This document shows, one piece after another, positions 4,599 through 44,888 of a stretch of DNA of 64,000 bases (within the stretch, counting starts at the first letter, position 1; every line of letters starts with the position of its first letter). The translations under genes were made by a program, and so were the position numbers. Location of the stretch: positions 435,246-499,245 of the forward strand of contig SVAI01000001.1 of assembly GCA_015059495.1 (NCBI GenBank), written 5' to 3'. The DNA is from Bacillota bacterium. Lineage in GTDB: Bacteria > Bacillota_I > Bacilli_A > RF39 > UBA660. The notes under the pieces are model-generated. The model was not told the DNA's origin. It made no database searches and saw only the letters and a list, made by a program, of their open reading frames with translations.

Positions 4599-4630
4599 AA
4601 AAGATGTTTTAATAAACATCTTTTTTATTT
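4598..4630. terminator. bidirectional rho-independent terminator between the convergent lexA-like and TasA-like genes
   Basis: aaaagatgttt-taat-aaacatctttt hairpin flanked by A-run and T-run. Confidence 0.55.
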
Positions 4631-6283
4631 TGACTCTCGAGGAGAATTAATTGCTAACTTGTATGGATTATTTGATGTACCATTTCCTTCAAAAATTACA
4701 ACTGAATTATCAAGATAAACTACAGGGAAAACTCCCTTTACATTACTTCCAGTTTGTAATCCCATGTAACCACTTTCTCCTATACCAAAAGACTCACTAG
4801 CATTTCCTGACCAAGCATAAGGTGGAAATATCCAATACCAAATATTTTTGACTAGCCAAGTATTATTATAACAATCTGAAATATTTTCTATATTACTTTC
4901 ATCCATCCACATAAGCGGACCATAACTTATGCACGCACTTCTATTTAAGTTAGCACCACCACTACTTGAATAACCATAATCACTAGCATACAATAAGCCA
5001 ACCTTAGCAATAGTACTAGTAGTTCTTTCAACACTATCATTACAATATTTAGAAGATGCACATCCTTTTGAAATACTATTGCCTCTTTCATATGTATAAA
5101 AATCAACTATTGTAGTTTGACCAAGAGTATTATTCATTTCAGCTGGTAGAGAACCATGCTTCCAATTAACAGTACTAATCATTTTTTGAGCAGTTGCATT
5201 TAATGTTGAAGCTGGCTTAGCAGCTTTCTTTTTATTACCATCGCCATTATACCATTTACCATCAGTACCAACAGTTATATTACCTAAATAATCAGTATTT
5301 AATTCTCTATATAAGTCAGCACCTTCATAAGTTCCAGATGATCCCCATTGATTTATTCCCCATCCACTATTTATACTTGATGCACTAGAATCCCAAGAAT
5401 AATTACCAAGAGATACATCTCTTATAATTTTAACTCTAGGAGCAACATTACCATTTTGATCTTCAATATTATTAAATACACCAACAATTCGCCATTTTTC
5501 ACAAGTTGAATCCCCCATTACTTCAGGATCATCACTAGTACAATTAAAATAAACATAATTATTAGGATTTGCACCATAATATCTTAAGTTATTATCTTCA
5601 GTTCCATATTCTCCTAAAGTATCAACACCATCATATTCTAAATCACTAGCACCATTATTTTTTAATACAGTTAAATAATCAACTGCAGGTTTAATACTAG
5701 ATTCAAGATAATTGTTAATGTTTATCTTAGCAGTAAATCTTCTATTTTTGTTATCATCTTGATTAGAATTATCTTCCCTAAATTTAAATCTAATTAAGTA
5801 TGTATCAACTCTATCAACATCAATAGATCTAGTACTACCTATTTTTGAACTCTCACCAACTATACTTGGTACTACTTCATCATCCACTATTTTAGTAAAA
5901 CCAGTTAAATCCCCATAAACAAAAGTAAAATCAGTAGAATCATTTCTATAATAAAGATCATATACAAGATCATTTTTATCTACAAAAGTATTAATTATTT
6001 CAGACAAGTAAATATTATAGGCAGTTTCAACACTTCCATTATTATGAACACTAAACATTTTATCAATTTGAGCACCTGGAATAGCATCAAAAACAACTTT
6101 TTCACCATTATCATGAAAGTCTAAACTTAAAGTCCCACTAGTAATAACATTACTATTAGCATTATTATTACCTTCAACACTTGCAGTATAATATGCAAAA
6201 GATGCTACTGTAGCAATAGATAAAATTAAAAATGCTCCAATAACAACTAATAATTTAAAATATTTATTCATCATGTCAATCAC
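4625..6283 (-). CDS. secreted protein with SipW-cognate-type signal peptide and TasA/camelysin-like N-domain fused to a large C-terminal extension
   Basis: The TM/h-region is followed by SFAYYTASVEGNNNANSNVITSGTLSL (compare CalY GGTFAYFSDKEVSNNTFATGTLDL). The downstream block ...PGAQIDKMFSVHNNGSVETAY... resembles the TasA beta-sandwich (PGD...V.N.G). It is paralogous to five other genes in the window. Confidence 0.6.
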   Translation of the reverse strand: MIDMMNKYFKLLVVIGAFLILSIATVASFAYYTASVEGNNNANSNVITSGTLSLDFHDNGEKVVFDAIPGAQIDKMFSVHNNGSVETAYNIYLSEIINTFVDKNDLVYDLYYRNDSTDFTFVYGDLTGFTKIVDDEVVPSIVGESSKIGSTRSIDVDRVDTYLIRFKFREDNSNQDDNKNRRFTAKININNYLESSIKPAVDYLTVLKNNGASDLEYDGVDTLGEYGTEDNNLRYYGANPNNYVYFNCTSDDPEVMGDSTCEKWRIVGVFNNIEDQNGNVAPRVKIIRDVSLGNYSWDSSASSINSGWGINQWGSSGTYEGADLYRELNTDYLGNITVGTDGKWYNGDGNKKKAAKPASTLNATAQKMISTVNWKHGSLPAEMNNTLGQTTIVDFYTYERGNSISKGCASSKYCNDSVERTTSTIAKVGLLYASDYGYSSSGGANLNRSACISYGPLMWMDESNIENISDCYNNTWLVKNIWYWIFPPYAWSGNASESFGIGESGYMGLQTGSNVKGVFPVVYLDNSVVIFEGNGTSNNPYKLAINSPRESK

Positions 6284-6476
6284 ACCTACTACTATTTATA
6301 TAATTATAATATCAAATTTATTAAATAAAAAAAAGATTTATTTTCATAAATCTTATAAATATAAAGAAGAAGATTTTGTTGTGATTTTAGAAGATAAACA
6401 TGTTAAAACTGTTAAATACACCAAGAAGCCAGAGAAAGTTATTGGAAAAATAATCGCAGTTTACAAGAAATTTTAA
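6273..6476 (+). pseudogene. remnant of a LexA-like gene (C-terminal fragment only)
   Basis: The ORF C-terminus FVVILEDKHVKTVKYTKKPEKVIGKIIAVYKKF is clearly homologous to the C-terminus of the 4029-4598 protein (YVVTLKDDKVSIVKYKANTKNIIGKVIASIRKY). The N-terminal 35 aa are low-complexity and there is no HTH. Confidence 0.45.
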
Positions 6477-6503
6477 AAGAGGTATATTAATACCTCTTTT
6501 AAA
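6474..6503. terminator. rho-independent terminator
   Basis: aaaagaggtata-ttaa-tacctctttt hairpin with flanking T/A runs, between the LexA remnant and the convergent TasA-like gene end. Confidence 0.5.
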
Positions 6504-8070
6504 TTGCTAATTTATAAGGATTATCATATGATCCATCACCTTCAAGTACATATACATCATTTTTTAAATAAAGTGCAGGTCTAACACCATTCTTTTCAAA
6601 TAACATTCTCTCAGTTATATCACCACTCGAAGAAAGACAATAAACTGTATTTGCTGAATTTGATGTTCCAGAAGCAGTAATAGTAAATAAAGTTATATAA
6701 TTATATTCATTCCCAACTCCATATAGCCAAGAGGACGAACCGCAAAAAGTGTACCTATAACTCCAAAGTGAAAAATCAGTTTCCAAACATGTTCTTTTAT
6801 CATAATTATCACTACCACTAGTAGAATAACCGAATTCACTAACAGACATTAATCCGATCTTTCCAACCCACGATGATGTTCTTACAACAGTGTCACTACA
6901 ATCAACACCACCACTACAATATTTACCGTTATTTTCACTTCTTTCTAAATTATACATATTTTTAGGATTAAAACTCAACGTTGAATATCCTTTAGAACCT
7001 GTATACCATTTAGCTTCTTGAATCATATTTAAAGCATTACTCTTAATTGTTGATGTAGGTCTTTTTACAGTTCTTCTATTATAATAATCACCAACCCAAT
7101 ATCCATCAGCACCTATGGTATAATTACCCAAATAATCGGTATTTAATTCTCTCATAAGAAACGACCCAGGATATAAAGTACCATCTTCATATACAGATTC
7201 ACCCCATTGATTAACACCAGTACCTTGATTAACAGCTTTAATCGAACTATCCCAAGAATACAATCCTAAATATCCACTATGTATAATCTTAACTCGTGAA
7301 TCAGCATTACCTTCACCATCTTCGATATTATTAAAAATTCCCATAATTTGCCACTTTTGACAGGTATAAATAGACATTTCATCAGGATTAGAAGTATTAC
7401 AATTAAAATAAACATAATTATTTGGAAATTTTCCTACATATCTTAAATTATTATCTGAAGTTCCAACATCACCTAAAGTATCAACACCATCATATTCCAA
7501 ATAACTAGCACCTGCATTTTTATCTTCAATAATCTTAGTAGCTAATCTAATTTTAGGTACTTCCTCAGATAGTTCAACTTTAGCTCTAAATGTTTTACCC
7601 TTATTATTATCTTGATTTAAGTTAGTCTCTTTAAAAGTAATCTTTAATGTATAATTGTGAGTTTGACCAACACCAATTGCAACATTAGATGCTATTTTTG
7701 TATTTGTTTCTGGACAAGTAGTTTGATTAATATTATAACCTTCGCTACTAATTAATTCATAAACTAAATCACTTTTATTAGCGAAATCATTTATAACATC
7801 ATTTAAATATATATCATAAGCGGTATCAACTGTACCAGTATTTCTAACACTAAATGCTAAAGTTACATAGTCCCCTGGTAACATATTTGAAGTTGTACCA
7901 ACAACATTACCATTTTCAAAAGTAACCTCCATATACCCAGTAACAATAACAGTATTACTAGCCGTAGCATTCCCACCTATACTCGCAGTAAAATAAGCAT
8001 AAGATGTAATAGATACTAAAGCAATAATTAAAACACTTAATATATACAATATAGTTTTTTTATTATTCAT
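6499..8070 (-). CDS. secreted TasA/camelysin-like N-domain protein with C-terminal extension (paralog)
   Basis: The signal peptide is followed by SYAYFTASIGGNATASNTVIVTGYMEV. Residues 24-160 are identical to the 8087-9754 product. The central YDGVDTLG...YVYFNC...QWG...RELNTDYLGN module and the C-terminal NGVRPALYLK...NPYKLAI are shared with paralogs. Confidence 0.6.
   Translation of the reverse strand: MNNKKTILYILSVLIIALVSITSYAYFTASIGGNATASNTVIVTGYMEVTFENGNVVGTTSNMLPGDYVTLAFSVRNTGTVDTAYDIYLNDVINDFANKSDLVYELISSEGYNINQTTCPETNTKIASNVAIGVGQTHNYTLKITFKETNLNQDNNKGKTFRAKVELSEEVPKIRLATKIIEDKNAGASYLEYDGVDTLGDVGTSDNNLRYVGKFPNNYVYFNCNTSNPDEMSIYTCQKWQIMGIFNNIEDGEGNADSRVKIIHSGYLGLYSWDSSIKAVNQGTGVNQWGESVYEDGTLYPGSFLMRELNTDYLGNYTIGADGYWVGDYYNRRTVKRPTSTIKSNALNMIQEAKWYTGSKGYSTLSFNPKNMYNLERSENNGKYCSGGVDCSDTVVRTSSWVGKIGLMSVSEFGYSTSGSDNYDKRTCLETDFSLWSYRYTFCGSSSWLYGVGNEYNYITLFTITASGTSNSANTVYCLSSSGDITERMLFEKNGVRPALYLKNDVYVLEGDGSYDNPYKLAI
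7571..8004. repeat. copy 1 of a ~434 bp near-identical direct repeat (5' coding region of a TasA-like paralog)
   Basis: Direct reading shows the DNA at 7571-8004 and 9252-9685 is identical except for about 3 positions (for example gctc/gtac near the start and a/g at 7620/9300). Confidence 0.8.
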
Positions 8071-8086
8071 CTAAATCCTCCTTATC

Positions 8087-9754
8087 TTAATTTGAAATAG
8101 TTAATTTATATGGATTAGATGATGTTCCTTCACCTGAAGCTATAGATACTTCATTTTTTAAGAATAATGCTGGACGAACACCACCATTTTGGCTTGCATA
8201 ACCATCACTTGTAGTAATATCAAAGCCATGGTATTCGCTCGTCCAATAACCAGCACCACTAATGGAGCTACCGGTATAAGCAACACAATCAGTCCAATAA
8301 TTCATTGTTGTGGACGGAGACAAAAAATTATCCAAATAATCGATTTTAATAATCCATGAACTAGTTATACAATCACCTGTATATGATGTATTATTATAGT
8401 CTAAGCAAACATTTCTACTTAAACCATTAACTGGTTTTATAGAATAAGCAAAATCACTAGTATATATTAAAGCAATTTTTCCAATCCATGTTGTTGTTCT
8501 TACAACTGTATCATTGCAAACATTATCATAATCTTCCATATTTTTACACTGATCAGGATTATTATTACTTCTCTCACCTACATAAAAATTTTTAGCTGTC
8601 CAAGTTGAATACTCATGTTTTAAGGTTGTAACATCATAATATCCTTCTCTAGCTCCCAAATTCCATTTTACAGTTTGAATCATATTTTGAGCATTTTGAT
8701 TTAAAGTTGTTGTTGGCATGTCTATTTTATGTATAACTTCATCGGTTCCACTATTATAAATGTGGGTATACCACTTACCATCTGTTCCAACTGTTATATT
8801 CCCTAAGTAGTCAGTATTTAATTCTCTCATAAGGTCTGCACCTTCATATGGTGTACCATCTTCATATGTTGATGCACCCCATTGATTAATACCCCAACCC
8901 TGATTTATTTCTTCTACAGAATCATCCCAAGAATAATTACCTAGTGAATCATCTCTCATAATCTTTATACGAGAAGCACTATTTCCATTTTCGTCTTCAA
9001 TATTATTAAATACACCTACTATTCTCCATTTTTCACAAGTTTCATCATTCATTAAAGATGGATTTGTAGTTGTACAGTTAAAATAAACATAATTATTTGC
9101 ATCACTACCTACATATCTTAAGTTATTATCTATTGTACCTTCTTCACCTAATGTTGCAACACCATCATATTCTAAATCAGTTGCACCATTATTTTTTAAA
9201 TCAGTTAAAAAACTTACTATACCATTTGTAGGACTATCATTATTTTCCTCAAGTTCAACTTTAGTACTAAATGTTTTACCCTTATTATTATCTTGATTTG
9301 AGTTAGTCTCTTTAAAAGTAATCTTTAATGTATAATTGTGAGTTTGACCAACACCAATTGCAACATTAGATGCTATTTTTGTATTTGTTTCTGGACAAGT
9401 AGTTTGATTAATATTATAACCTTCGCTACTAATTAATTCATAAACTAAATCACTTTTATTAGCGAAATCATTTATAACATCATTTAAATATATATCATAA
9501 GCGGTATCAACTGTACCAGTATTTCTAACACTAAATGCTAAAGTTACATAGTCCCCTGGTAACATATTTGAAGTTGTACCAACAACATTACCATTTTCAA
9601 AAGTAACCTCCATATACCCAGTAACAATAACAGTATTACTAGCCGTAGCATTCCCACCTATACTCGCAGTAAAATAAGCATAAGAAGCTATTGTTGCAAC
9701 ACTTATTACAAAAATTGATAAAACCAAAAGAAAAGATTTTACTCTTCTATTCAT
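8087..9754 (-). CDS. secreted TasA/camelysin-like N-domain protein with C-terminal extension (paralog)
   Basis: Same N-terminal motif and domain as above. It is 16 bp upstream of the next paralog with an AGGAGG RBS in the gap, so the two are probably co-transcribed. Confidence 0.6.
   Translation of the reverse strand: MNRRVKSFLLVLSIFVISVATIASYAYFTASIGGNATASNTVIVTGYMEVTFENGNVVGTTSNMLPGDYVTLAFSVRNTGTVDTAYDIYLNDVINDFANKSDLVYELISSEGYNINQTTCPETNTKIASNVAIGVGQTHNYTLKITFKETNSNQDNNKGKTFSTKVELEENNDSPTNGIVSFLTDLKNNGATDLEYDGVATLGEEGTIDNNLRYVGSDANNYVYFNCTTTNPSLMNDETCEKWRIVGVFNNIEDENGNSASRIKIMRDDSLGNYSWDDSVEEINQGWGINQWGASTYEDGTPYEGADLMRELNTDYLGNITVGTDGKWYTHIYNSGTDEVIHKIDMPTTTLNQNAQNMIQTVKWNLGAREGYYDVTTLKHEYSTWTAKNFYVGERSNNNPDQCKNMEDYDNVCNDTVVRTTTWIGKIALIYTSDFAYSIKPVNGLSRNVCLDYNNTSYTGDCITSSWIIKIDYLDNFLSPSTTMNYWTDCVAYTGSSISGAGYWTSEYHGFDITTSDGYASQNGGVRPALFLKNEVSIASGEGTSSNPYKLTISN
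9252..9685. repeat. copy 2 of the ~434 bp near-identical direct repeat
   Basis: See copy 1. The repeat lies in the adjacent paralog, 1681 bp apart in the same orientation. Confidence 0.8.
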
Positions 9755-9907
9755 AAAAAATCACTCCTATAATTATATTTTTTTTAATTATCATGTTTAA
9801 AGACTTCATCTATAATAAGAATATCATTTAATTTAACATTTATCAATTACCTAAAGATAAATTTACGATTACTTTTACAAATAAAAAAAAGTCTTTATAT
9901 AAGACTT

Positions 9908-11047
9908 TTATTTAAAAAACATAAACACTACTAAGAATAAAATTAGCAAGATTAAAACTATACATCCATTAGCTCTTTCAGAAGTAGTTGCTTTATCACT
10001 TACACCAACAGCCATAGATGATAAATATCCACCAATTAAACCACCAATGTGTGCAAAATTATCAATGCCAGGTGTAATAAATCCTAAAGCTAAATTAAAT
10101 ATGATTAATGGTACTATTTGAGATTTAATAACTGTACTTAAATATAATCTATAATGATAACCAAAGTAAACTAACGCACCCATAAGACCAAATATAGCAC
10201 CAGATGCACCAACACTATAAGAATTTGAGAATACCATAGACATTAAACATCCAACTATACCACTAAATAAATATATTAATATATATTTAGTTTTACCTAG
10301 GAATGTTTCTATTTGATTACCTATTACATATAAAGCATACATATTAAATATTAAATGCATTATATTAGCATGCATAAACATAGCACTAAATACTCTATAA
10401 TAGTCTCCTGCTACAAATAATTCTCTATTAGCAGCAAAAGTATATAACATTGATGGATACATATAACTTAATAAATATATTAATACATTTATAACTATTA
10501 AAGCGTATGTAATAACTATTGTTTTAGGTTTAAAAGTCTTCTCATAAGCTTTATTTTCTTTAGCAGTCTTTTCATTAATATCATTAGTAACATTAATAAT
10601 TAAATCAATACCTTTAGTATCATTTAATAAATTATCCTTTATATTAGGAAAAGCATCTTTAATAAACTTATTTTTCTTAATATCTCCAACATTTTTAATC
10701 TTAACTGAATCCATATCTTTATCTTCAACTAACTTAACACCAGTATTTAGATCTAAGAATATATTTAAAGTATTAACTTTAAAAGATAAAGTTTTCTTTT
10801 TTATTTGTTTTATAACATTCTTAGTTTTATATAAATCTGCCTCTATTTGTTCATTATTATGAATATAATTAGTATTAATTCTTATAATTCTATAAGGACC
10901 ATCTAAATTCTCTAACCATACTTCATTTTTAACACCATTAACTATAATTGGTTGATAGTTTTCTTCAGTAATAAAATAATGAACTAAACGCATAACGATG
11001 TCTTCTTTTTTATCAACTACAACGTTCATAATTCTACCTCTTTTCAT
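9908..11047 (-). CDS. rhomboid family intramembrane serine protease with N-terminal cytoplasmic domain (GluP/YqgP-like)
   Basis: C-terminal half is polytopic with the catalytic GASGAIFGL (GxSG) motif and the later AHIGGLIGGY (His). The stop codon is embedded in an aaagtctt-tata-taagacttt terminator hairpin. Confidence 0.8.
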   Translation of the reverse strand: MKRGRIMNVVVDKKEDIVMRLVHYFITEENYQPIIVNGVKNEVWLENLDGPYRIIRINTNYIHNNEQIEADLYKTKNVIKQIKKKTLSFKVNTLNIFLDLNTGVKLVEDKDMDSVKIKNVGDIKKNKFIKDAFPNIKDNLLNDTKGIDLIINVTNDINEKTAKENKAYEKTFKPKTIVITYALIVINVLIYLLSYMYPSMLYTFAANRELFVAGDYYRVFSAMFMHANIMHLIFNMYALYVIGNQIETFLGKTKYILIYLFSGIVGCLMSMVFSNSYSVGASGAIFGLMGALVYFGYHYRLYLSTVIKSQIVPLIIFNLALGFITPGIDNFAHIGGLIGGYLSSMAVGVSDKATTSERANGCIVLILLILFLVVFMFFK

Positions 11048-13636: not shown

Positions 13637-14404
13637 TTAATCAATCAATTTTTTTAGTTTTAATATCGCACTTTTTTCAATTCTAGATACTTGAGCTTGT
13701 GATATATCTAAACTAGATGCTATTTCACTTTGTGTCATACCATAAATATATCTACTTTCTAATACTTCTCTTTCTCTTAATTTAATATGTTCTAAAGCTT
13801 TTCTTAATGCTATTAAACTATCTTTATCTTTATTAGTATCTGCTATTTGATCACATAAATATATAGTATCTCCATTATCACTATATATTGGATCATATAA
13901 AGAATATACATCTTTTAAGCTATTTAATGCTAATCTAATATCATATTCATTTAAATTTAAATCTCTTTTAATATCTTCTATTGAAGGTTCTTTCCCATTA
14001 TTAATTAAATAATCTTCTTTATACTTTAATATTAAATAAGCATTATCTTTAATACCTCTAGATATCCTAATACTTGTATTATCTCTAATATATCTTTTTA
14101 TTTCTCCTAATATTAGAGGTACTGCATATGTAGAAAATAAACAATTATATGATAAATCAAAATTATCTACTGCTTTAATTAATCCTATTACCCCTATTTG
14201 AAATAAATCATCTAAATTATTATTTTTATTATTAAATCTCTTAATAATAGATAATACTAACTTTAAATTACCATTAATTATTATTTCTTTATTTTCTTTC
14301 TTACCATCTCTTAATCCTTTAAATAACTCTACCATATCTTTATTTGATAATACTTTTAAATTATTAGTATTAATACTAGTTATTTCAACACTATATTTAC
14401 TCAT
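13637..14404 (-). CDS. SigF/SigG-family (group 3, sporulation-type) RNA polymerase sigma factor
   Basis: Aligns along its length with B. subtilis SigF: DLFQIGVIGLIKAVDNFDLSYNCLFSTYAVPLILGEIKRYIRDN, DNGDTIYLCDQIAD, LREREVLESRYIYGMTQSEIASSLDISQAQVSRIEKSAILKLKK. No spoIIAA/AB or spoIIGA neighbours. Confidence 0.8.
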   Translation of the reverse strand: MSKYSVEITSINTNNLKVLSNKDMVELFKGLRDGKKENKEIIINGNLKLVLSIIKRFNNKNNNLDDLFQIGVIGLIKAVDNFDLSYNCLFSTYAVPLILGEIKRYIRDNTSIRISRGIKDNAYLILKYKEDYLINNGKEPSIEDIKRDLNLNEYDIRLALNSLKDVYSLYDPIYSDNGDTIYLCDQIADTNKDKDSLIALRKALEHIKLREREVLESRYIYGMTQSEIASSLDISQAQVSRIEKSAILKLKKLID

Positions 14405-14449
14405 AATAAAAATCCTTTCTAATCATATATTGATTAAAAAGGATTATTT

Positions 14450-15136
14450 TTATACTAAATTAGATAAATAATTAACAATCTCATTAATATTAAATAATAA
14501 CACAAATATTATACTTAAGAATATAATACCAATTATTATTATACCTATAGGTTTAAATTGATTAGATTGTTTAACTATTATTAAATTCTTATCTTTTAAT
14601 TCATTTAATATATTATCTATAGTATTTATATTATAATTACTTTCTTTTAAATCTAATAAAGACTTTCTAACATCTATATTAGGTATAGTATCAATAACTG
14701 CTTTAAATATTTCATTTAAATCATTATTATATTTATGATTACCTATAACATTTCTAAAAGTTAGTGCTAAAGAATTACCAATTCTATTAGATACTATATC
14801 TAAAGAATTCTTTAAATCTTTAGTAGTATTATATGATAACTTAAGCATATTAAATAAAAGAATAGCTTCATCATATAACTTATCACTTCTTATTTTAATC
14901 TTATTATCTATTAATATTAATGTATATAAATAATAAAATGATATAGATATTATTAATGCTAATAGCAATCCATATTTAGGTACTAATAAACATATAATAA
15001 ATAAGAATATTGATATTAATAATCTAGTTACTAAAAAATACTCTAATTTTAATTTATTATTAGGTCCTAAATAAGACATCTTTTTATTATATTTATTAAT
15101 ATATTTCTTACTAAAAATATTCTTTAATATATTCAT
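14450..15136 (-). CDS. TadC-like (type II secretion system F-domain) membrane protein
   Basis: 228 aa with N-terminal TM pair, helical cytoplasmic segment and C-terminal TM. Position and size fit the Tad locus inner-membrane platform. No strong motif. Confidence 0.4.
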   Translation of the reverse strand: MNILKNIFSKKYINKYNKKMSYLGPNNKLKLEYFLVTRLLISIFLFIICLLVPKYGLLLALIISISFYYLYTLILIDNKIKIRSDKLYDEAILLFNMLKLSYNTTKDLKNSLDIVSNRIGNSLALTFRNVIGNHKYNNDLNEIFKAVIDTIPNIDVRKSLLDLKESNYNINTIDNILNELKDKNLIIVKQSNQFKPIGIIIIGIIFLSIIFVLLFNINEIVNYLSNLV

Positions 15137-16113
15137 TTTCTAGCCTCCATCATCTTTCTAATAGTATGAATAAAGACTATATATATAAATACTATTACTT
15201 CTAATATAATTATTCCATATACATTATTAAATACATTATTAAAGTAATTAAAATCATTAATAGACATAAATAATATTATAGATAAAGGAAGTAACATAAA
15301 TACTATTTTAATAACATTTAATATTGTATTTAAAGAATCTTTATAAGTATTTTTCTTATCATAATATTCAAAATTACTTCTAACTATATGAAATGTATCT
15401 TCTAAATTATCTGAATCTATATCAAGTAAATGATATATAACTCTAATCTCAGGTATTCTAGTTCTTTTATAAAATCTTCTAAATGCTTGAGTTAAAGATA
15501 TATTATAAGATAAATCTATTAATATTCTTTGATATTCATCTGCTATATCATCATCTAATTCTCTAACTACTTTACTTAAAGCATTATATATATTAGTTTT
15601 AGATATGTTATCATCTAATACTATAATAGATTCATATAACTTATTAGATATATTCTTACATTTCTTTTCATATCTAATTTGCCAATATAAACTAGGTAAA
15701 ACAATTCCAAGTATAACAAATATAACAAGTAATATAATATTAAAACTAAATACTCTAGCTAATACTAAAAATAAATATAAAAGAATTGATAATATTAAAG
15801 ATATTAATATTACAGTTATATAATCTATTGGACTCTTAAAATCCTCTTCTTTAATTAATATGTATTTTTCATATCTAGAAGATAACTTCATTAAAACTCT
15901 ACTTTTATTTAATAAATTACTAATTAAATGTACTAAATTCCATAATACATGAGATATCTTTTCAAATGTAGTCGTATCATCAAAATCTTTTTTAGATAAA
16001 GAAAAATTACTAATTCTAGTTTCTAATAAAGATGATCTAATTGAATATATTACATTAAAGATAATAACTAAGGAGATAAATATTAAAATGAGTTGTATTA
16101 CATATGCATTCAT
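15133..16113 (-). CDS. TadB-like (type II secretion system F-domain) membrane protein
   Basis: 326 aa with topology similar to TadB/GspF-family platform proteins. Overlaps its neighbours (operon). Confidence 0.4.
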   Translation of the reverse strand: MNAYVIQLILIFISLVIIFNVIYSIRSSLLETRISNFSLSKKDFDDTTTFEKISHVLWNLVHLISNLLNKSRVLMKLSSRYEKYILIKEEDFKSPIDYITVILISLILSILLYLFLVLARVFSFNIILLVIFVILGIVLPSLYWQIRYEKKCKNISNKLYESIIVLDDNISKTNIYNALSKVVRELDDDIADEYQRILIDLSYNISLTQAFRRFYKRTRIPEIRVIYHLLDIDSDNLEDTFHIVRSNFEYYDKKNTYKDSLNTILNVIKIVFMLLPLSIILFMSINDFNYFNNVFNNVYGIIILEVIVFIYIVFIHTIRKMMEARK

Positions 16114-16125
16114 AATTTATCCCCC

Positions 16126-17424
16126 TTATTTAAGACTATCAAATATATCATCTATATAATCTATACCTTTACTAGATATCTTTTTATATGCTCTAGGTAT
16201 ATATTTATATAATTGGAATTCACCATCTACTCTACCACTATCAAGTAATTTCTTTTGTTTAAAAGCAAATATTTCTTTTAATACAATTTCACCTTTTTGA
16301 TTCTTATTTAATTCCAAAATAGATGTAATTCTATGTTTATTATCACTTAACTTAGATATAGTAACTATTAAATCTATAGCATTATACATAGTTTCTCTAG
16401 CTATTTTAGATGCTATATTCTTTTGTTCTACATATGCTGATTCTAAGAAATTAATAACTTCTAAAGCATTATTTGAAGAACACGTTTCCATTACATTAAT
16501 TGAATCATCTACCATAACATCAATACTAGATGAAACTAATTCTTTACTTAAATTATTAATAATTAATGTATTAGGATGTATATTTAATGCTGTTTTAATA
16601 ATATTATCATTAGTCTTTAAATTAACCACATTATTCTTTCTAATATTTAATTCATCGGTTGGTGATATAGTAATTAACCTCGAATAATCTGAAGATAAAT
16701 TAGCAAGAGAAGATAAAAGTGATGTCTTACCACTCTTTGATCCACCAGAGATGATAATATTAAGTTTAGCTTTAACAGCAGCCTCTAAAAATCTAGCCAT
16801 ATATGGTGTTAAAGTACCAAGTTTAACTAATTCATCCATATCAGTAACAACTGGATTAAATTTCTTAATATTAATAACAGGTCCATTAACAGATACCGGA
16901 GGCATAACTACAGTTAAAAGTGATCCATCACTTAAAGTAGTTTCAATAACATTAGATGAATCTAATTTAATATTTGAATTAGATAATAATTTCTTTATAG
17001 TTCTTATAATATGTTCATTATTAATAAATGATATTGAATTATCTCTAACTATCTTACCATCTACTAAAGCATATATTTCATTATAAGAATTAACCATTAT
17101 TTCTTCTACATTATCATCTTTTAACAATGATGATAATGGTCCATATCCATTAATTTCTTCATTAATAATATTATATAAATGATTTCTTTCTAAATTAGAT
17201 AAATTATATCCCCTAGTCTTTTCACTAATTACATCAAGTACTAATTCTTTAGTAATAGTAATATTCTTATAAGATTGATTACCTAATTCATTTAAAATAT
17301 TTCTTCTTAATATTTCTAATTCTTCTTTATTATTAAAAATATATTTTAAATCATCTTCTTTATAATCATAATTAACATCTAAATTAAATTCTTTAATTAA
17401 ACTATTTCTACTCATGAATATCAC
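16126..17424 (-). CDS. CpaF/TadA-type secretion ATPase (VirB11/GspE superfamily)
   Basis: Walker A IISGGSKSGKTSLLSSLANL (compare CpaF ISGGTGSGKTTLLNAL), length about 430 aa, N-terminal regulatory domain. Confidence 0.8.
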   Translation of the reverse strand: MIFMSRNSLIKEFNLDVNYDYKEDDLKYIFNNKEELEILRRNILNELGNQSYKNITITKELVLDVISEKTRGYNLSNLERNHLYNIINEEINGYGPLSSLLKDDNVEEIMVNSYNEIYALVDGKIVRDNSISFINNEHIIRTIKKLLSNSNIKLDSSNVIETTLSDGSLLTVVMPPVSVNGPVINIKKFNPVVTDMDELVKLGTLTPYMARFLEAAVKAKLNIIISGGSKSGKTSLLSSLANLSSDYSRLITISPTDELNIRKNNVVNLKTNDNIIKTALNIHPNTLIINNLSKELVSSSIDVMVDDSINVMETCSSNNALEVINFLESAYVEQKNIASKIARETMYNAIDLIVTISKLSDNKHRITSILELNKNQKGEIVLKEIFAFKQKKLLDSGRVDGEFQLYKYIPRAYKKISSKGIDYIDDIFDSLK

Positions 17425-18193
17425 CCCTCTTTTCAGTGATATCAGCTGCTATAGTAAGTAATGTTGAATAGTCTTTTTGATATACTCTAGCTACATCTTT
17501 TAATAATGTTGGTATATGTCCATTCATTAATATTCTATCAATATTTTCAATAAAGAATTCAGTAGATAAAGTATAATCTATATTTGCTTGTATAGTTTTC
17601 TTAATATCATACATAGAAAAATAATCTTTAAAAGGATTATTAGAATTATTTAATAATACTTTATAATTATCTATTCCTAAATTCTTTAATATAGCAAGAA
17701 CTGATCTAGTACTCTTTAAATTTAATGGATCATTATTAATCATAAATAATATATCATCTACTTTATCCATTAAATATAAAGTTGTTGGTCCAAGATCATG
17801 ATTAGAATCTATTAATATAACATCATAGATAAATCCAGCTTGATCTATAATCATATCTAAATATCTTAAATCAATCTTAGAGGCATCTCTAGGATCTTTA
17901 GGACATGCAATAGCGCTAATATATTTATTATATTTTAAAACATAATTATCAAAATCTTCGAAGACATTATTTTTTAAATCTTCACTCATTTCATATACAG
18001 ATTTATTATAAGATTTATTTAATGCTAGAGCTATTCCACCACTAGTTAAATCTAAATCTATAATTAATACTTTCTTCTCTAAAGAGCAGATTATACCTGC
18101 TAAATCTAAAGTAAATATGGTTTTACCCACGCCACCTTTAGTTGAAGCAATTAAAACTGATTTTGATTTTTTAGTACTTGCCATACTTACCAA
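17408..18193 (-). CDS. ParA/MinD-superfamily ATPase, CpaE/TadZ-like
   Basis: Deviant Walker A KGGVGKT (ASTKGGVGKTIFTLDLA). 4 bp overlap with the CpaF-like gene. Confidence 0.7.
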   Translation of the reverse strand: MVSMASTKKSKSVLIASTKGGVGKTIFTLDLAGIICSLEKKVLIIDLDLTSGGIALALNKSYNKSVYEMSEDLKNNVFEDFDNYVLKYNKYISAIACPKDPRDASKIDLRYLDMIIDQAGFIYDVILIDSNHDLGPTTLYLMDKVDDILFMINNDPLNLKSTRSVLAILKNLGIDNYKVLLNNSNNPFKDYFSMYDIKKTIQANIDYTLSTEFFIENIDRILMNGHIPTLLKDVARVYQKDYSTLLTIAADITEKRGDIHE

Positions 18194-31101: not shown

Positions 31102-31109
31102 ATAAAATC

Positions 31110-31186
<77 letters not shown>

Positions 31187-39959: not shown

Positions 39960-41855
39960 TTAATTAGTTCTTAAAGTAAAGTATCCTGCTTTATTAGCAG
40001 AAGGATTATCTATTCTAGCATATTCACCATTTATATGACTATCAGTATAAGTAGTTCCAGCTCCACCTTTTAATTTAGTACTACCAATAAACATATTACC
40101 AGCACTATAAGATGAAGGATGAGCAAAATCACTAGGTACATAAACAGTTTCAAGTTCAGTACAATAATTCATCATATATTTAAGACTAGTAACCTTAGAA
40201 GTATTAAACTTAGGACCTAAATCAAGAACTCTAATAGATGATAACCAAGTAAACATAGCTTGCATATTAGTAACATTTGATGTATCAAAATTATTGCCTA
40301 AATTTAAATCAGTTAATGCATGCATACTAGCAAACATTGATTGCATAGTTGTTACTTTAGAAGTATCAAACTTATCACCTAAATCTAAACTAGCGACATT
40401 CTTTAACCCTGCAAACATACTTCTCATATAGCTAACATTTGATGTATCAAAATTAGAACCCAAATCTAATGATTCTAAAGCATCACAACTTTCAAACATA
40501 CTATTCATATTAGATACTCTACCAGTATTAAATTTATCACCTAAATCTAATGATTTAAGATTCTTCATATTATAAAACATATATTTCATATCACTTACAT
40601 TAGATGTATCAAAATTAGATCCTAAATCTATACTTTCCATACTTTGTAGATTAAAAAACATTCCTGACATATTCTTAACATTACCAGTATTAAAATTATT
40701 ACCAAAATTAATAGATGTAATATTAGCACAATTATAAAACATATCTTCCATAGTAGTAACATCACTTGTATCAAAGCTGTTTCCAAAATCTATAGCTTGT
40801 ATATAATAACTATTATAAAACAATCCATACATATTCTTAACACGAGATGCATTTAATTTTTCTAAATTTAAACTAGAATATCCCATGTTATTTGAAAACA
40901 TATAAGAACTATTTTCATTCATATAAATAGTAGGATTTTCAGAACTTATATATAATATTCCATTATAAACAAAAGCATAAATATCATCATCTCTATTATC
41001 AGATGAAACATCCATAATTGTAACATTTTCTAATATTTGAGAAGGTAAATCAGATATTTTTGTATTACTAATGGATAAAGCACGTATATATAATTTACCA
41101 TCATTTATAGTGCTTAATAAAGTATTATTATAATATTCCTCACATGTTAGACCAGATGTTTCAAAATCACTTTTACTAGCACAATAAGCATCTAAATCAA
41201 CACCAACATGATTTCTAGCCGATTCAACTGATAACTCACTAACTATTTGATTAAAGGTAGGACCATCAACAAGTTCAGCTACTCTTTCAGCTTCTTTATA
41301 ATCATTTATACTTATTTTACCCTTAAACTTTTTACCCTTATTATCATCTTGATTAGTTCCATCATCTTTAAAATAGAAAATTATTGTATAAGCATGAGCT
41401 TTACCAGCGCTTATCGAACAAGCAGAAAAAATTTTAGATTCTTCTCCTACCTCACTTGGAACAACTCTTTCTCCATCTACAGAACAACCATCTTCAAAAA
41501 TTTCAGAATTATGTTCATAATTAGATATGGAGTCAACATAATAAACTAAATCATTTTTATCAGCAAATGTATTTATTATTTCAGATAAATATACATCATA
41601 AGTAGTATCCATATTTCCTGAATTATAAACAACAAAAGACTTTTCTACACGTTGTGTTGGATAAGCATTATTTAAAGATACTTGATCGCCATCATAAAAT
41701 TCTAATCTTAAATCTCCAGATGTAATAACTGTATCATAAACACTCTCGTTACCTTTAACATTAGCTACGAAATACGCATAAGATGCACTAGTAACCAACG
41801 ATAATATTAAAAAGGCTGCAACTAATACAAGTGTTTTTATATATCTATTCTTCAT
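39960..41855 (-). CDS. secreted TasA/camelysin-like N-domain protein with C-terminal DUF285-type 26-residue surface repeats
   Basis: N-terminus SYAYFVANVKGNESVYDTVITSGDLRL plus a TasA-like domain (YLSEIINTFADKNDLVY shared with the 4625-6283 product). The C-terminal half has at least 8 tandem repeats of the form LDLG.NFDTSNVT.M..MF. Confidence 0.65.
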   Translation of the reverse strand: MKNRYIKTLVLVAAFLILSLVTSASYAYFVANVKGNESVYDTVITSGDLRLEFYDGDQVSLNNAYPTQRVEKSFVVYNSGNMDTTYDVYLSEIINTFADKNDLVYYVDSISNYEHNSEIFEDGCSVDGERVVPSEVGEESKIFSACSISAGKAHAYTIIFYFKDDGTNQDDNKGKKFKGKISINDYKEAERVAELVDGPTFNQIVSELSVESARNHVGVDLDAYCASKSDFETSGLTCEEYYNNTLLSTINDGKLYIRALSISNTKISDLPSQILENVTIMDVSSDNRDDDIYAFVYNGILYISSENPTIYMNENSSYMFSNNMGYSSLNLEKLNASRVKNMYGLFYNSYYIQAIDFGNSFDTSDVTTMEDMFYNCANITSINFGNNFNTGNVKNMSGMFFNLQSMESIDLGSNFDTSNVSDMKYMFYNMKNLKSLDLGDKFNTGRVSNMNSMFESCDALESLDLGSNFDTSNVSYMRSMFAGLKNVASLDLGDKFDTSKVTTMQSMFASMHALTDLNLGNNFDTSNVTNMQAMFTWLSSIRVLDLGPKFNTSKVTSLKYMMNYCTELETVYVPSDFAHPSSYSAGNMFIGSTKLKGGAGTTYTDSHINGEYARIDNPSANKAGYFTLRTN

Positions 41856-41955
41856 ATTATCACTACCTTATACATATTATCATTTTTAATAAAAAAAGTA
41901 AATTAATTTTATACAATATATTTCAAATAAAAAAAGAAGATATAAATCTTCTTTT

Positions 41956-43740
41956 TTATTTAATACCTCCACCAGCAGAGTCACAGTCAGACCATGACGA
42001 AGGTACACTACCGCTTGGTGTATATCCAGCGCTATATCCAGTATCACAAAATGCACTAGAACCATTCGTAACATTTGATATATCAAAATTATTTCCAAGA
42101 TTTAAGCTAAAATTTTGAGCATTATAACCCGCATCAGTAAACATATTTGACATATCATAAACATTAGAAGTATTAAAATTATTTCCTAAATCTATTGTTA
42201 AAGAATTAGCATTATAACCAAATTCCCCAAACATATGAGACATATTAGTAACACTAGATGTATCAAAGTTATTTCCTAAAACCAAATTAATATTAGCACC
42301 AGAAGCTCCAGCATTATAAAACATACTACTCATGTTTCTTACATACTTAGTATATAAATTATCTATGTGATCTATTCTTTCAAAAGGCATACCACTTAGT
42401 AATTCAGAAGTACTATAAGGAACTACCATATTTTCAAAATCAACAACACTAATTTTTCTATTATCTTCCCACGTCATAAAATCATAAGTATATTTATCCA
42501 TTTCTTCATCATAACTTAACAAACTAGGATTTTTTACAACATATACATCATCTCTTGCTACTCCAGTAGAATTAAAAGCTAATGTATATTTAGAATCATT
42601 TTTTATATACTTATAAATATATAAATCAAGTGTATTACCAGTAGGAATACAATTACCTAAATATCTATTTGGAGGATCATTTAAACATTCTTCAAGTGAA
42701 ATACCATGAATGCTACCATCTACAAAATTTTTTATAGAAACAAGCTGAGATTTTAATTCACAAGAAAAATTATATGCTCCGTTCGAATCCAAAAATTCAT
42801 AACAACTATTTTCATCATCAAAAATCAAATTATATGTTTTAGACTGATATTTTTGTTTATCAGCGTTAAATTCGCACATATAAGCAGAATTATCATTTTG
42901 GCATTCTTCTAATGTATCATATTCATTACGTGACATTGGTATAGTATATTTATTTTCTTTCATTTCACATAAAACTGTAAATCCCTCACTAGAATTTTCT
43001 AACGCTTGAGTATTACATTCCTCTAATGAATAGTAATTCGGATCAAAAAACTCCTCTTCATAATATTCATAATTAGCAATCTCCATGGTTGCTGGAGAAC
43101 AACTACCATAACCATTATTACTTATAGCATTATTACAATCTTGTTCATTGCTATAATTCTCATGATTATATTCATTTGCATAAAGATATGCAAATACAGG
43201 TGTTTGTGCAACTTCAATTTCTTCAATTCCAATTATAGAACTAAATGTAACCCCTTGATTATCACCTTGATCAGTATCATCAACTTTAAATGTAATAGTT
43301 AATATATAATGATGAGTTTGACCAACACCTATTCCTACTCCACTAGCAAACTTTCCACTTACAGATGGTGCAACTGTTTCATCTATATTAAAACCACCAT
43401 CATCAGATACTAAAGTATACACCAAATCATTTTTATCAACAAATGAATTAATTACATTATTAAAATATAAATCATAATAAGCTGTTACAGTACCAGTGTT
43501 AGACACTTCAAATGGTACCATAACGCTTTGACCCGGTATCATATTATCAGAAGAGCCAATAATATTACCTTGACTAAAGCTAACAGACATATTACCTGTA
43601 GTTATTACCATTTCTTGTGATCTACCAGCAACAGCCCCACTAAAATATGCATAAGATACTAAAGATACTATACAAAAAACAGAAAGACATATTGAAATTA
43701 TTGCTATTTTATTCTTTTTAGATAAATTCATTTTGCACAT
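41956..43740 (-). CDS. secreted TasA/camelysin-like N-domain protein with C-terminal DUF285-type repeats
   Basis: N-terminus SYAYFSGAVAGRSQEMVITTGNMSV. C-terminal repeats LGNNFDTSSVTNMSHMF / LGNNFNTSNVYDMSNMF / LGNNFDISNVTNGSSAF. Confidence 0.65.
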   Translation of the reverse strand: MCKMNLSKKNKIAIISICLSVFCIVSLVSYAYFSGAVAGRSQEMVITTGNMSVSFSQGNIIGSSDNMIPGQSVMVPFEVSNTGTVTAYYDLYFNNVINSFVDKNDLVYTLVSDDGGFNIDETVAPSVSGKFASGVGIGVGQTHHYILTITFKVDDTDQGDNQGVTFSSIIGIEEIEVAQTPVFAYLYANEYNHENYSNEQDCNNAISNNGYGSCSPATMEIANYEYYEEEFFDPNYYSLEECNTQALENSSEGFTVLCEMKENKYTIPMSRNEYDTLEECQNDNSAYMCEFNADKQKYQSKTYNLIFDDENSCYEFLDSNGAYNFSCELKSQLVSIKNFVDGSIHGISLEECLNDPPNRYLGNCIPTGNTLDLYIYKYIKNDSKYTLAFNSTGVARDDVYVVKNPSLLSYDEEMDKYTYDFMTWEDNRKISVVDFENMVVPYSTSELLSGMPFERIDHIDNLYTKYVRNMSSMFYNAGASGANINLVLGNNFDTSSVTNMSHMFGEFGYNANSLTIDLGNNFNTSNVYDMSNMFTDAGYNAQNFSLNLGNNFDISNVTNGSSAFCDTGYSAGYTPSGSVPSSWSDCDSAGGGIK

Positions 43741-43742
43741 CC

Positions 43743-44888
43743 CTACTTTTCTAAAATTATAACTGGTCGAACACCATAATGAACCTGATAGTATTTATAA
43801 TCATATTCATAATTATCCCAAACGAATTTTCCAGTTTTGTCCACTGCTACAATACTATAAGCACCAGATGCAGTACCAGACCAATAAGACGTTTGATAAA
43901 CCCATTCAGGCGCATTATGTGTACAGTCATTACCCAAAGACCAGCATCCTAAGCTATTCAATTCACTTTCAGTTATTAATCTGCCTGATACTCTTGCACC
44001 CTGACCATTTAAATAATTTACATAATATTCTACGTATTCAGCAATAGAATTAATATAAGTTCCATCATCATTTTTATTATTAGTATAAACATAAGCATGA
44101 TAATTATTACCATATTCAGGTTTAACATGATTTTGTGAATCATTCCAATAATTTATACTTGAAAATGGAACAGGAGAACCGTAACCAGCAAATTGCAAGC
44201 CATCTTTAAATCCATATTGAGCACCATCATCTCCAACATTTAAATTCCACTTAGAAAGAAGTTTAACATGTTCTTCGTCTTCTTGGCCTATTACATAGAA
44301 TTGTTCATTTGCTATTTTAACTATAGATCCAACAGTATATAAATCTCCTGATACAATCGTATATGGTGGCTTTGTATCTTCACTTAAACCTATTTTTGCG
44401 CTAAAAATCTTACCTTTATTATCATCTTGGTTTACACCAGTTTCATCAAAAGTTACTCTTAGTGTATAATTTTGTGTTGTACCAACAGGTAAACTTATAT
44501 GACGTTTAATTGCTTGATTAACGCTTGGACACGTTGCTTGTGCAACTGTTGTTCCAGAACCATCAATAAGTTCACATACTAAATCTTCTTTTGTAACAAA
44601 TGTATTTATAATATCATTTAAATCAACACTATAAAACATATCTACTGTACCTGTATTTTGTACAGAAAACGATTTTTCTATATATTGTCCTGGCAACATA
44701 TTTGATGTTGAACCAATAACACTGCCATCAATATAAGTTATTTCCAGCTGACCTGTTGTAACAACTGTTGCTCGTGATACACCAGTAATAGTTGCAAAGA
44801 AATGAGCGTAAGACACAGTTGAAATTAAGCAAACAATAAAAGCACATATTGCAACTAAAAATAATTTTTTATTCTTAGTTAATTTCAT
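43743..44888 (-). CDS. secreted TasA/camelysin-like N-domain protein with distinct C-terminal domain
   Basis: N-terminus SYAHFFATITGVSRATVVTTGQLEI plus a TasA-like domain. Ends in GVRPVIILEK (compare GVRPALYLK / GVRPALFLK in cluster-1 paralogs). 2 bp from the next paralog. Confidence 0.6.
   Translation of the reverse strand: MKLTKNKKLFLVAICAFIVCLISTVSYAHFFATITGVSRATVVTTGQLEITYIDGSVIGSTSNMLPGQYIEKSFSVQNTGTVDMFYSVDLNDIINTFVTKEDLVCELIDGSGTTVAQATCPSVNQAIKRHISLPVGTTQNYTLRVTFDETGVNQDDNKGKIFSAKIGLSEDTKPPYTIVSGDLYTVGSIVKIANEQFYVIGQEDEEHVKLLSKWNLNVGDDGAQYGFKDGLQFAGYGSPVPFSSINYWNDSQNHVKPEYGNNYHAYVYTNNKNDDGTYINSIAEYVEYYVNYLNGQGARVSGRLITESELNSLGCWSLGNDCTHNAPEWVYQTSYWSGTASGAYSIVAVDKTGKFVWDNYEYDYKYYQVHYGVRPVIILEK

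What the first reader, a model, noticed from the sequence alone, without database searches (positions are those of the whole stretch)
7571..9685. ~434 bp near-identical direct repeat between adjacent paralogs (gene conversion / recombination cassette)
Nucleotides 7571-8004 (in gene 6499-8070) and 9252-9685 (in gene 8087-9754) differ at only about 3 positions. The rest of the two genes is only moderately similar. The signal-peptide codons immediately 5' of the repeat are also diverged.

The repeat covers mature residues about 24-160, which is the TasA-like domain. Such a sharp identity block in 25%-GC DNA implies recent gene conversion. It provides a 1.7 kb-spaced direct repeat that can delete or duplicate the intervening gene. 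This could work as a copy-number or variation mechanism for surface proteins, or it could reflect strong selection to keep the N-domains identical for co-assembly.
Basis: seen in the sequence. Interest (0 to 1): 0.65.

Follow-up and report, generated by a model that had tools for sequence, protein, structure and literature searches.

The report
Gene-conversion block between adjacent secreted-protein paralogs
Two neighbouring genes for secreted proteins in a small-genome gut bacterium share a 434-base stretch, coding for their TasA-like front domain, that recombination has made almost identical; this is a real but ordinary example of gene conversion, and the assembly software probably overstates how identical the copies are.

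Summary
Window 7571-8004 (gene g2, 6499-8070, minus strand) and 9252-9685 (gene g3, 8087-9754) are 431/434 identical. They share a 385-nt exact run, and the flanks are about 52-65% identical.

The block encodes the mature TasA/camelysin-like N-domain. It starts at the conserved SYAYF motif at the end of the signal peptide.

Outside the block g3 is a mosaic: its central part is closer to the third tandem paralog g1 than to g2. The block is therefore an interlocus gene-conversion or recombination tract, not a young duplication.

Relatives show similar events. One has a different tract (promoter + signal peptide + about 26 mature residues) between its tandem pair. One has a homology break at the same SYAYF codon. 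One has a single gene at the syntenic locus.

New caveat: two JGI assemblies that are otherwise identical over 21.7 kb differ only at five sites, and those five sites flip together in both copies. All five lie more than 127 nt from any base that distinguishes the copies. This is what metaSPAdes bubble collapse (k up to 127) would produce. The real copies probably differ at 8 sites, not 3.

There is no evidence for deletion or duplication junctions. Selection for identical N-domains is not supported, because the other four N-domain paralogs in the window are 35-50% identical. This is a new member of a known kind, of modest interest.

The parts
7571..8004 (-). Block copy in g2 (g2 nt 67-500, codons 23-167): the mature TasA-like N-domain
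   Evidence: 431/434 identical to 9252-9685, with an exact run at 7620-8004
9252..9685 (-). Block copy in g3 (g3 nt 70-503, codons 24-168)
6499..8070 (-). g2: 523-aa secreted protein (NCBI MBE6158610, E7159_02145). Signal peptide + TasA-like N-domain + about 350-aa C-domain with no Pfam match
8087..9754 (-). g3: 555-aa paralog (MBE6158611, E7159_02150), 16 nt upstream of g2. It is a mosaic: its N-domain equals g2's, and its central C-domain is closer to g1
4625..6283 (-). g1: third tandem paralog. Its N-domain is diverged (about 40% aa identity to g2/g3) and carries insertions; its C-domain is 73-82% nt identical to g3 centrally
8005..8070 (-). g2 signal-peptide codons, unrelated to those of g3 (38% aa identity). 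The block edge lies at the first codon of the SYAYF motif
9686..9754 (-). g3 signal-peptide codons. The ortholog h in L084 loses homology at the same point
9440..9538 (-). Five sites in g3's copy (9538, 9503, 9446, 9443, 9440 = g3 nt 217, 252, 309, 312, 315) that differ between assemblies L001 and L083
7759..7857 (-). The five homologous sites in g2's copy (7857, 7822, 7765, 7762, 7759), which flip together with those in g3. This is probably a collapsed assembly bubble hiding real differences between the copies
   Evidence: JGI assembly k-mer sizes
9772..9801 (-). Promoter-like site upstream of g3 (consensus match only)
6472..6503 (-). Terminator-like 14-bp hairpin right after the g2 stop. Together with the 16-nt g3-g2 gap it suggests a g3-g2 operon
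39960..44888 (-). Three more genes with the same TasA-like N-domain fused to other C-domains (DUF285/BspA-like repeats; a 205-aa domain ending GVRPVIILEK). N-domains are 36-51% identical to g1-g3 (tblastn)

Best explanation
g3, g2 and g1 are tandem members of a large, recombining multigene family of secreted proteins in an uncultured gut Bacilli bacterium (about 1.25 Mb contig, 25% GC). Each protein has a signal peptide, a TasA-like N-domain and a lectin-like C-domain. A homologous-recombination event (interlocus gene conversion, presumably RecA-dependent) copied about 390-430 nt encoding the mature N-domain from one of g3/g2 into the other. One edge fell at the nucleotide-conserved SYAYF signal-peptide motif and the other near the domain linker. 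The tract is a passive product of recombination between adjacent paralogs, not a dedicated cassette mechanism. The two copies have since diverged at about 8 sites (1.8%). Five of these are hidden in each assembly because metaSPAdes merged the interior of the repeat into one path that is traversed twice. Shown here: the block, its edges, the mosaicism of g3, comparable events in relatives, and the paired flips between assemblies. Inferred: the recombination pathway, the direction of transfer, and the assembler collapse.
For: Block and sharp edges. Far beyond chance. Incongruence: in alignment columns 256-330 g3 is 71-82% nt identical to g1 but 63-70% to g2, while in the block g2 equals g3. Recurrence in the family: the L085 tandem pair is 92-100% identical from about -50 (76% from -99) to +150 and then about 55-60%. 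The ortholog h in L084 is about 94% identical to g3 from the SYAYF codon to the stop, but about 52% in the signal peptide and upstream. The syntenic locus in L088 holds one family gene instead of three. Among 63 family proteins, 13 pairs have N-domain identity >=85% with C-domain identity <=70%, and no pair shows the reverse. Assembly collapse: L001 and L083 are identical over 21,668 bp except for 5 + 5 homologous sites. These sites are 148 nt and 140 nt from the nearest base that distinguishes the copies (g3 nt 69 and 455), which exceeds the largest k (127) of the JGI metaSPAdes workflow. Both haplotypes are old: a third strain (L089) carries A,C,G,G,C and the ortholog h carries A,T,A,T,T, against G,C,A,T,T in the window and A,T,G,G,C in L083. 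Four of the five changes are synonymous third positions. A LexA gene adjoins the array, consistent with an SOS/recombination system being present.
Against: No reads were available, so the collapse is inferred. The paired flips could instead be two co-existing sublineages, each with homogenised copies. I could not confirm that samples 3300021319 and 3300021326 were assembled with the published JGI settings. The direction of transfer is unresolved. Between h and g3, dS is 0.17 in the block and 0.053 in the rest of the gene. So either g2 was the donor or h has itself been patched. The tract coincides almost exactly with the mature N-domain, which a purely random tract would do only occasionally. 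recA itself was not seen, as it lies outside the window.
Confidence: 0.68

Rival explanations
1. Active, ongoing concerted evolution. Conversion between the two N-domain copies is frequent enough that sublineages in the enrichment cultures each carry two identical copies (haplotype 1 or haplotype 2). Identity may be favoured because g3 and g2 are co-transcribed and their N-domains co-assemble into one TasA-like, donor-strand polymer.
For: The paired flips are also what two homogenised sublineages would give. g3 and g2 look like one operon. The N-domain has a disordered stretch after the cleavage motif (residues 25-44, pLDDT <50), like the donor strand of TasA/BsaA (PMC9674648, PMC11580942). 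Pairs with similar N-domains and diverged C-domains are common in the family.
Against: It needs two opposite conversion events with zero other mutations in 21.6 kb. The flipped sites sit only in the zone that k=127 cannot resolve. g1 and three other N-domain paralogs are 35-50% identical, so identity is not required of family members. The L085 tract covers a different part of the gene. The N-domain evolves under purifying selection (omega 0.26) and the C-domain at omega about 1, which by itself yields similar-N/diverged-C pairs at the protein level.
Confidence: 0.17
2. Domain or cassette replacement by a one-off non-homologous or microhomology-mediated event (a partial duplication pasted into the neighbour at the SYAYF motif), rather than classical homology-driven gene conversion.
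For: Present-day flanks are only about 52-65% identical, which is poor substrate for RecA. Two independent homology breaks fall at the SYAYF codon. There the nucleotide sequence TCTTATGCTTATTTTACTG is shared by g2, g3 and h and is partly conserved in other paralogs.
Against: The replaced segment keeps exact reading frame and length with no junction scars. The pre-conversion N-domains may have been similar enough for homologous recombination, since h and the block differ by only about 7%. The outcome cannot be told apart from conversion using sequence alone.
Confidence: 0.1
3. The whole block is an assembly artefact: one gene's N-domain was wrongly written over by the other's.
For: The assemblies do mishandle the interior of the repeat. 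g2's copy is seen only in assemblies from one project.
Against: De Bruijn bubble collapse needs shared k-mers on both sides, so it cannot turn about 65%-identical sequence into a 385-nt exact match. Six assemblies agree. An independent contig (L089) carries g3's block contiguous with both of its unique flanks. The three differences in the last 49 nt of the block (its linker end) are reproduced in both assemblies.
Confidence: 0.04

Closest known systems
Interlocus (ectopic) gene conversion / concerted evolution between tandem paralogs of bacterial surface or secreted proteins (for example Brucella omp2a/omp2b, PMC7050475; adhesin and receptor domain shuffling, PMC8860441)
   Same: A sharply bounded near-identical tract inside otherwise diverged adjacent paralogs. 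The phylogeny is mosaic, and independent tracts recur in relatives.
   Different: The family involved has not been described: a TasA-like N-domain joined to a lectin-like C-domain in uncultured small-genome gut Bacilli. The tract coincides with one whole domain. The degree of identity is partly an assembly effect.
TasA / camelysin (Pfam PF12389 Peptidase_M73) biofilm-fibre proteins of Bacillus, and BsaA of Clostridium perfringens
   Same: The N-domain shares the motif region (G-T/N-L/M-E/D ... PGD ... F.V.N.G). It has a beta-sandwich fold with TasA as top structural hit, a hydrophobic signal peptide ending in an aromatic-rich A-Y-F type motif, and a disordered stretch where TasA/BsaA have their donor strand (PMC9674648, PMC11580942).
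   Different: Here the TasA-like module is only the first about 145 mature residues and is fused to a large C-terminal domain. No SipW peptidase was found among the 35 distinct window ORFs scanned. Fibre formation is untested. Sequence similarity is marginal.
Thomasclavelia ramosa IgA peptidase (IgAse, PDB 9qa6), most likely its N-terminal C-type-lectin-like domain
Mycoplasma-type antigenic variation by conversion from silent cassettes (for example vlhA, MgPa repeats; from general knowledge)
   Same: A reduced-genome, low-GC, host-associated bacterium of the Bacilli, with a multicopy surface-protein family showing recombination mosaics and a fast-evolving exposed domain (omega about 1).
   Different: No silent or truncated donor copies are in the window, as all six copies are full-length genes. 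No switching was observed. The homogenised part is the conserved domain, not the variable one.

Membership tests
Interlocus gene-conversion tract | Block of near identity with abrupt edges inside diverged paralogs, beyond chance | tested here: met
   431/434 identical with a 385-nt exact run. Flanks are 52-65% identical. The shuffled maximum run is 33.
Interlocus gene-conversion tract | Phylogenetic incongruence between the tract and the rest of the gene | tested here: met
   Outside the block g3 is nearer to g1 (71-82% nt, alignment columns 256-330) than to g2 (63-70%). The block's dS to ortholog h (0.17) differs from that of the rest of the gene (0.053).
Interlocus gene-conversion tract | Identifiable donor and recipient (non-reciprocal transfer) | tested here: inconclusive
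   h and L089 support the block being long associated with g3 (93% and 98% identity). However, the elevated dS in the block leaves the direction open.
Interlocus gene-conversion tract | Identity is real in the molecule and not produced by assembly | not testable with these tools
   No reads are available. The paired flips between L001 and L083, all beyond k=127 from any distinguishing base, suggest 5 hidden differences. The bulk of the identity cannot arise from bubble collapse.
TasA / camelysin (PF12389 Peptidase_M73) | Match to the family model above its curated cut-off | tested here: met
   g2 scores 25.6 bits and g3 23.5 bits against a cut-off of 22.5, but only over about 70 residues. g1 scores 21.2, below the cut-off. 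NCBIfam gives no match.
TasA / camelysin (PF12389 Peptidase_M73) | TasA-type beta-sandwich fold | tested here: met
   [not shown]
TasA / camelysin (PF12389 Peptidase_M73) | Cognate SipW-type signal peptidase encoded nearby | tested here: not met
   None was found among the 35 distinct window ORFs scanned with Pfam; one search rescanned only C-domain fragments of genes already covered plus one L090 ORF. Neighbours include a rhomboid protease and LspA. About 20 ORFs of the window and the rest of the genome were not scanned.
TasA / camelysin (PF12389 Peptidase_M73) | Polymerises by donor-strand exchange into fibres | not testable with these tools
   The only hint is that residues 25-44, after the cleavage motif, are modelled as disordered.
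Diversity-generating retroelement (TR/VR pair) | Adjacent reverse transcriptase, with differences confined to adenines of one copy | tested here: not met
   The differences are C/T, T/A and A/G, with the A in different copies. The flips are G/A, C/T, A/G, T/G and T/C. No RT domain is in the scanned neighbours. The repeat is 434 nt and lies at the N-terminus.
Silent-cassette antigenic variation system | Truncated or promoterless donor copies plus one expression site | tested here: not met
   tblastn of g1-g3 against the window finds only six full-length genes.
M64 IgA peptidase (igalysin) | Catalytic HExxHxxxGxxD zinc site | tested here: not met
   g2, g3 and h have no HE..H motif. The similarity is structural and limited to 208 residues.

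The most novel reading that the evidence does not exclude
The TasA-like N-domain is a common polymerisation or anchoring 'handle' that lets one donor-strand fibre display interchangeable 'heads': the lectin-like domain of g1-g3 and the DUF285/LRR domains of the 40-45 kb genes. Recombination repeatedly resolves at the nucleotide-conserved SYAYF cleavage motif and at the handle-head linker. Signal peptides, handles and heads are thereby shuffled as modules, giving a surface-variation system in small-genome gut Bacilli. On this reading the identical g2/g3 handles are a selected or frequently renewed state rather than a one-off accident.
Probability: 0.15. Interest if true: 0.6.

Novelty: new member of a known kind. 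Interest (0 to 1): 0.3.

Why it matters
There are three modest points.

(1) Method. Two assemblies of one genome differ only by a paired flip inside a repeat. This is a clean worked example of how metagenome assemblers can make paralogous repeats look more identical than they are. Any claim of "recent conversion" or "concerted evolution" drawn from metagenome-assembled genomes needs read-level phasing.

(2) Biology. It documents recombination-driven mosaicism in an undescribed, highly multicopy family of secreted proteins in uncultured gut Bacilli. Relatives are labelled Coprobacillus sp. CAG:605, Ca. Caccenecus or "uncultured Tenericutes". The proteins combine a TasA-like module with a domain whose best structural match is IgAse (PDB 9qa6), probably its lectin-like N-terminal domain. 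The C-domain evolves at omega about 1 between close orthologs, which suggests host- or phage-facing function.

(3) If the handle-and-heads idea held, it would extend TasA-type fibres from matrix scaffolds to adhesin display. Nothing here shows that.

Tried and rejected
DGR template/variable repeat: rejected. There is no adenine bias, no RT, and the size and position are wrong.

Silent-cassette system: rejected for the window. Only six full-length copies are present.

RNA elements: Rfam found only three tRNAs, far from the locus.

Promoter and terminator scan: counts are at shuffle level apart from one hairpin after g2.

First self-megablast with a filter at >=85% identity did not list the repeat. 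BLAST had extended the hit to 896 nt at 83.7% identity, so this is a filter effect, not a contradiction.

Same-species genomes: the species-representative genome collection holds only distant relatives, <=39% aa identity. The orthologous array could therefore not be compared there.

All-against-all megablast of the 80 related loci found few within-genome near-identical blocks. This is uninformative, because short-read MAGs break at such repeats.

Exact 40-mer scan of the metagenome collection: one extra contig only (L089), with no deletion or duplication junctions.

L090, L091 and L092 were fetched to look for further homogenised tandem pairs. Only L091 has two copies. They lie 5 kb apart, with N-domains about 85-95% and C-domains about 45-80% nt identical. 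This is suggestive but not a sharp tract.

Sequence searches of g3 and of the family profile against the PDB gave nothing for the C-domain. Pfam at E<=10 also gave nothing for the C-domain.

A SipW-type peptidase was not found among the 35 distinct window ORFs scanned.
Full report
**1. Observation**

The window holds three tandem paralogs on the minus strand:
- g1, 4625-6283
- g2, 6499-8070
- g3, 8087-9754

At a fixed offset of 1681 nt, 7571-8004 (g2) and 9252-9685 (g3) differ at three positions: 7584, 7585 and 7619. Positions 7620-8004 are an exact 385-nt match.

Identity drops immediately on both sides:
- In the signal-peptide codons it falls to about 0.52-0.60.
- In the linker, just 3' of the block in gene orientation, it falls to about 0.59-0.65 and there is a 6-nt indel.

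Shuffling the g2/g3 match vector 10,000 times gave a longest run of 14.8 on average and never more than 33. Window GC is 24.8%.

**2. What the genes are**

- The window matches JGI contigs 100%. It also matches the NCBI MAG "Firmicutes bacterium", proteins E7159_02145 and E7159_02150, on a 1.26-Mb contig.
- The neighbours are ordinary chromosomal genes: transketolase, a glycolipid synthase, LexA, a rhomboid protease, RluD and LspA.
- Each paralog has an N-terminal hydrophobic signal peptide ending in S-Y/F-A-Y-F/Y. An N-domain of about 145 residues follows, then a linker and a C-domain of about 350 residues.

Evidence that the N-domain is TasA/camelysin-like:
- Pfam PF12389 scores just above its cut-off for g2 and g3.
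- A 63-sequence family profile hits TasA in the PDB at E about 0.02, on the G-T-L-D ... PGD ... F.F.N.G motif.
- Residues 25-44, just after the cleavage motif, are modelled as disordered. This is where TasA and BsaA carry their donor strand (PMC9674648, PMC11580942).

Evidence on the C-domain:
- It has no Pfam or PDB sequence match.

Three further genes at 39960-44888 carry the same N-domain fused to DUF285/BspA-like repeats or another domain. The family is highly multicopy in related gut Bacilli MAGs.

**3. Why this is conversion and not a young duplicate**

A codon alignment of the three paralogs shows:
- g2 and g3 are 99-100% identical in the block.
- Further along the gene, g3 is 71-82% identical to g1 but only 63-70% to g2 (alignment columns 256-330).

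g3 is therefore a mosaic. Rapid protein divergence after a recent duplication cannot explain about 35% nucleotide divergence right next to a 385-nt exact match.

**4. The same kind of event in relatives**

- L085/L086, a related organism. A tandem 534-aa + 515-aa pair is 92-100% identical from about -50 (76% from -99) to +150. That span covers promoter, signal peptide and the first about 26 mature residues. The pair is about 55-60% identical thereafter. This is an independent tract with different end points.
- L084. Gene h is about 94% identical to g3 from the SYAYF codon to the stop. Its signal peptide and upstream DNA are about 52% identical, and it sits in a different genomic context. This is a second, independent homology break at the same codon as the 5' edge of the block. 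The motif DNA TCTTATGCTTATTTTACTG is identical in g2, g3 and h and is partly conserved in the other paralogs, so it forms an island of homology.
- L088, a species with 78-83% nt identity across the flanking syntenic genes. The syntenic interval from rhomboid to LexA holds one family gene instead of three.
- Among 63 family proteins, 13 pairs have N-domains >=85% identical with C-domains <=70% identical. No pair shows the reverse. Part of this asymmetry is expected from different selective constraint. Between h and g3, the block has omega 0.26 and the C-domain has omega 1.04.

**5.

A second JGI assembly (L083, sample 3300021326) is identical to the window's assembly (L001, sample 3300021319) across 21,668 bp except at 10 positions. 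Five are in g3's block (gene nt 217, 252, 309, 312, 315). The other five are the exactly homologous positions in g2's block. Four of the five changes are synonymous third-position changes.

Both haplotypes look old:

| Source | Bases at the five sites |
|---|---|
| Window (L001) | G,C,A,T,T |
| L083 | A,T,G,G,C |
| L089, an independent contig of a third strain (96.7% identical to the window overall) | A,C,G,G,C |
| Ortholog h (L084) | A,T,A,T,T |

Two old haplotypes in genomes with no other difference are most simply the two real copies. The five sites lie 148 nt and 140 nt from the nearest base that distinguishes the copies (g3 nt 69 and 455). That is just beyond the largest k-mer (127) of the JGI metaSPAdes workflow. 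By contrast, the three differences the assemblies do preserve lie within 49 nt of the unique flank.

A de Bruijn assembler would merge the interior bubble, pick one branch, and traverse the merged edge twice. That would give two artificially identical copies, and sister assemblies would make different picks. The observed split is 4 contigs to 2.

I therefore estimate the true identity at 426/434. The alternative is two sublineages, each homogenised by opposite conversions. It cannot be excluded without reads, but it needs two events and no other mutation in 21.6 kb.

**6. Interpretation**

The best-supported reading is a passive interlocus gene-conversion tract in a recombining multigene family.

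The direction of transfer is open. h and L089 tie the block to the g3 lineage. However, the block is three times more diverged from h at synonymous sites than the rest of g3 is.

The idea that the 1.7-kb direct repeat drives copy-number change is mechanistically reasonable. From general knowledge, a direct repeat of about 430 bp is a good RecA substrate. LexA is next door, and gene number differs between species. Against this:
- None of the six assemblies shows a junction product.
- None of the 90%-identity protein clusters shows one.
- The metagenome 40-mer scan found none.

The idea of selection for identical N-domains is not supported. Four other N-domain paralogs in the same 64 kb are only 35-50% identical, and the L085 tract covers a different segment. 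One observation is compatible with co-assembly: g3 and g2 look co-transcribed, given their 16-nt gap, a promoter-like site upstream of g3 and a hairpin after g2. It proves nothing.

**7. Comparison with known systems and novelty**

Gene conversion between adjacent surface-protein paralogs is well known. This is a new example in an undescribed family.

- It is not a DGR: there is no RT and no adenine bias.
- It is not a silent-cassette variation system: all six copies are full-length.
- It is not an IgA peptidase: there is no catalytic motif.
- Membership of the N-domain in the TasA family is marginally supported by sequence and fold. No SipW peptidase was found among the 35 distinct window ORFs scanned. 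Fibre formation is untested.

**8. Verdict**

The core of the interpretation, gene conversion of the TasA-like domain, is supported. The functional extensions are unsupported.

The main added value is twofold: the evidence that the assembly overstates the identity, and the placement of the event in a family-wide pattern of modular recombination. Interest is about 0.3.

Noticed in passing
window 39960-41855, 41956-43740, 43743-44888 (minus strand): A second cluster of three genes with the same TasA-like N-domain. Two are fused to DUF285/BspA-type leucine-rich repeats. The third is fused to a 205-aa domain ending GVRPVIILEK. The N-domain therefore acts as a shared module with varied C-terminal 'heads'.
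   Followed up: partly
L001 vs L083 (window 9440-9538 and 7759-7857): Two assemblies of the same genome differ only by five sites that flip together in both repeat copies. This is probably collapse of the repeat interior by metaSPAdes, a general trap for inferring concerted evolution from MAGs.
   Followed up: yes
L084 2653-4317 vs window 8087-9754: The close ortholog h of g3 has dN about equal to dS in the C-domain (0.055 vs 0.053; 49 non-synonymous against 12 synonymous changes). The N-domain, in contrast, has omega 0.26. The lectin-like head may be under diversifying or relaxed selection. h also has an unrelated signal peptide and lies in a different genomic context.
   Followed up: partly
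L085 8315-11548 (also L086): In a related organism the tandem pair shares a near-identical tract. It covers an upstream hairpin/promoter region, the signal peptide and the first about 26 mature residues (the putative donor strand). It crosses two different N-domain subtypes.
   Followed up: partly
window 9908-11047; L088 8800-9924: A rhomboid intramembrane protease gene sits immediately upstream of the family gene(s) in both this genome and a species about 82% identical. No SipW was seen. Whether rhomboid processes the SYAYF-type signal anchors is an open question.
   Followed up: no
window 13637-18193 (minus strand): An operon-like run of genes: a ParA/CpaE-like ATPase, a T2SS/T4P-type ATPase (PF00437), two membrane proteins without Pfam matches (326 and 228 aa) and a sigma-70 family factor. 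It resembles a Tad/T4P-like secretion set. In C. perfringens, secretion of TasA-like matrix proteins depends on T4P genes (PMC11580942).
   Followed up: no
[not shown]
   Followed up: partly
window 57401-57464 and 60859-60922; 31029-31186 and 34246-34319: There is a 65-nt direct repeat at 86% identity inside two roughly 430-aa ORFs (56534-57832 and 60100-61401), possibly paralogs. The 75-nt inverted match at 31 kb/34 kb is between tRNA genes (Rfam).
   Followed up: no
L091 1434-2978 and 8001-9527: Two family genes lie 5 kb apart on one contig. Their N-domains are about 85-95% nt identical and their C-domains about 45-80%. This is an older or partial version of the same pattern of similar N-domains with diverged C-domains.
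   Followed up: partly
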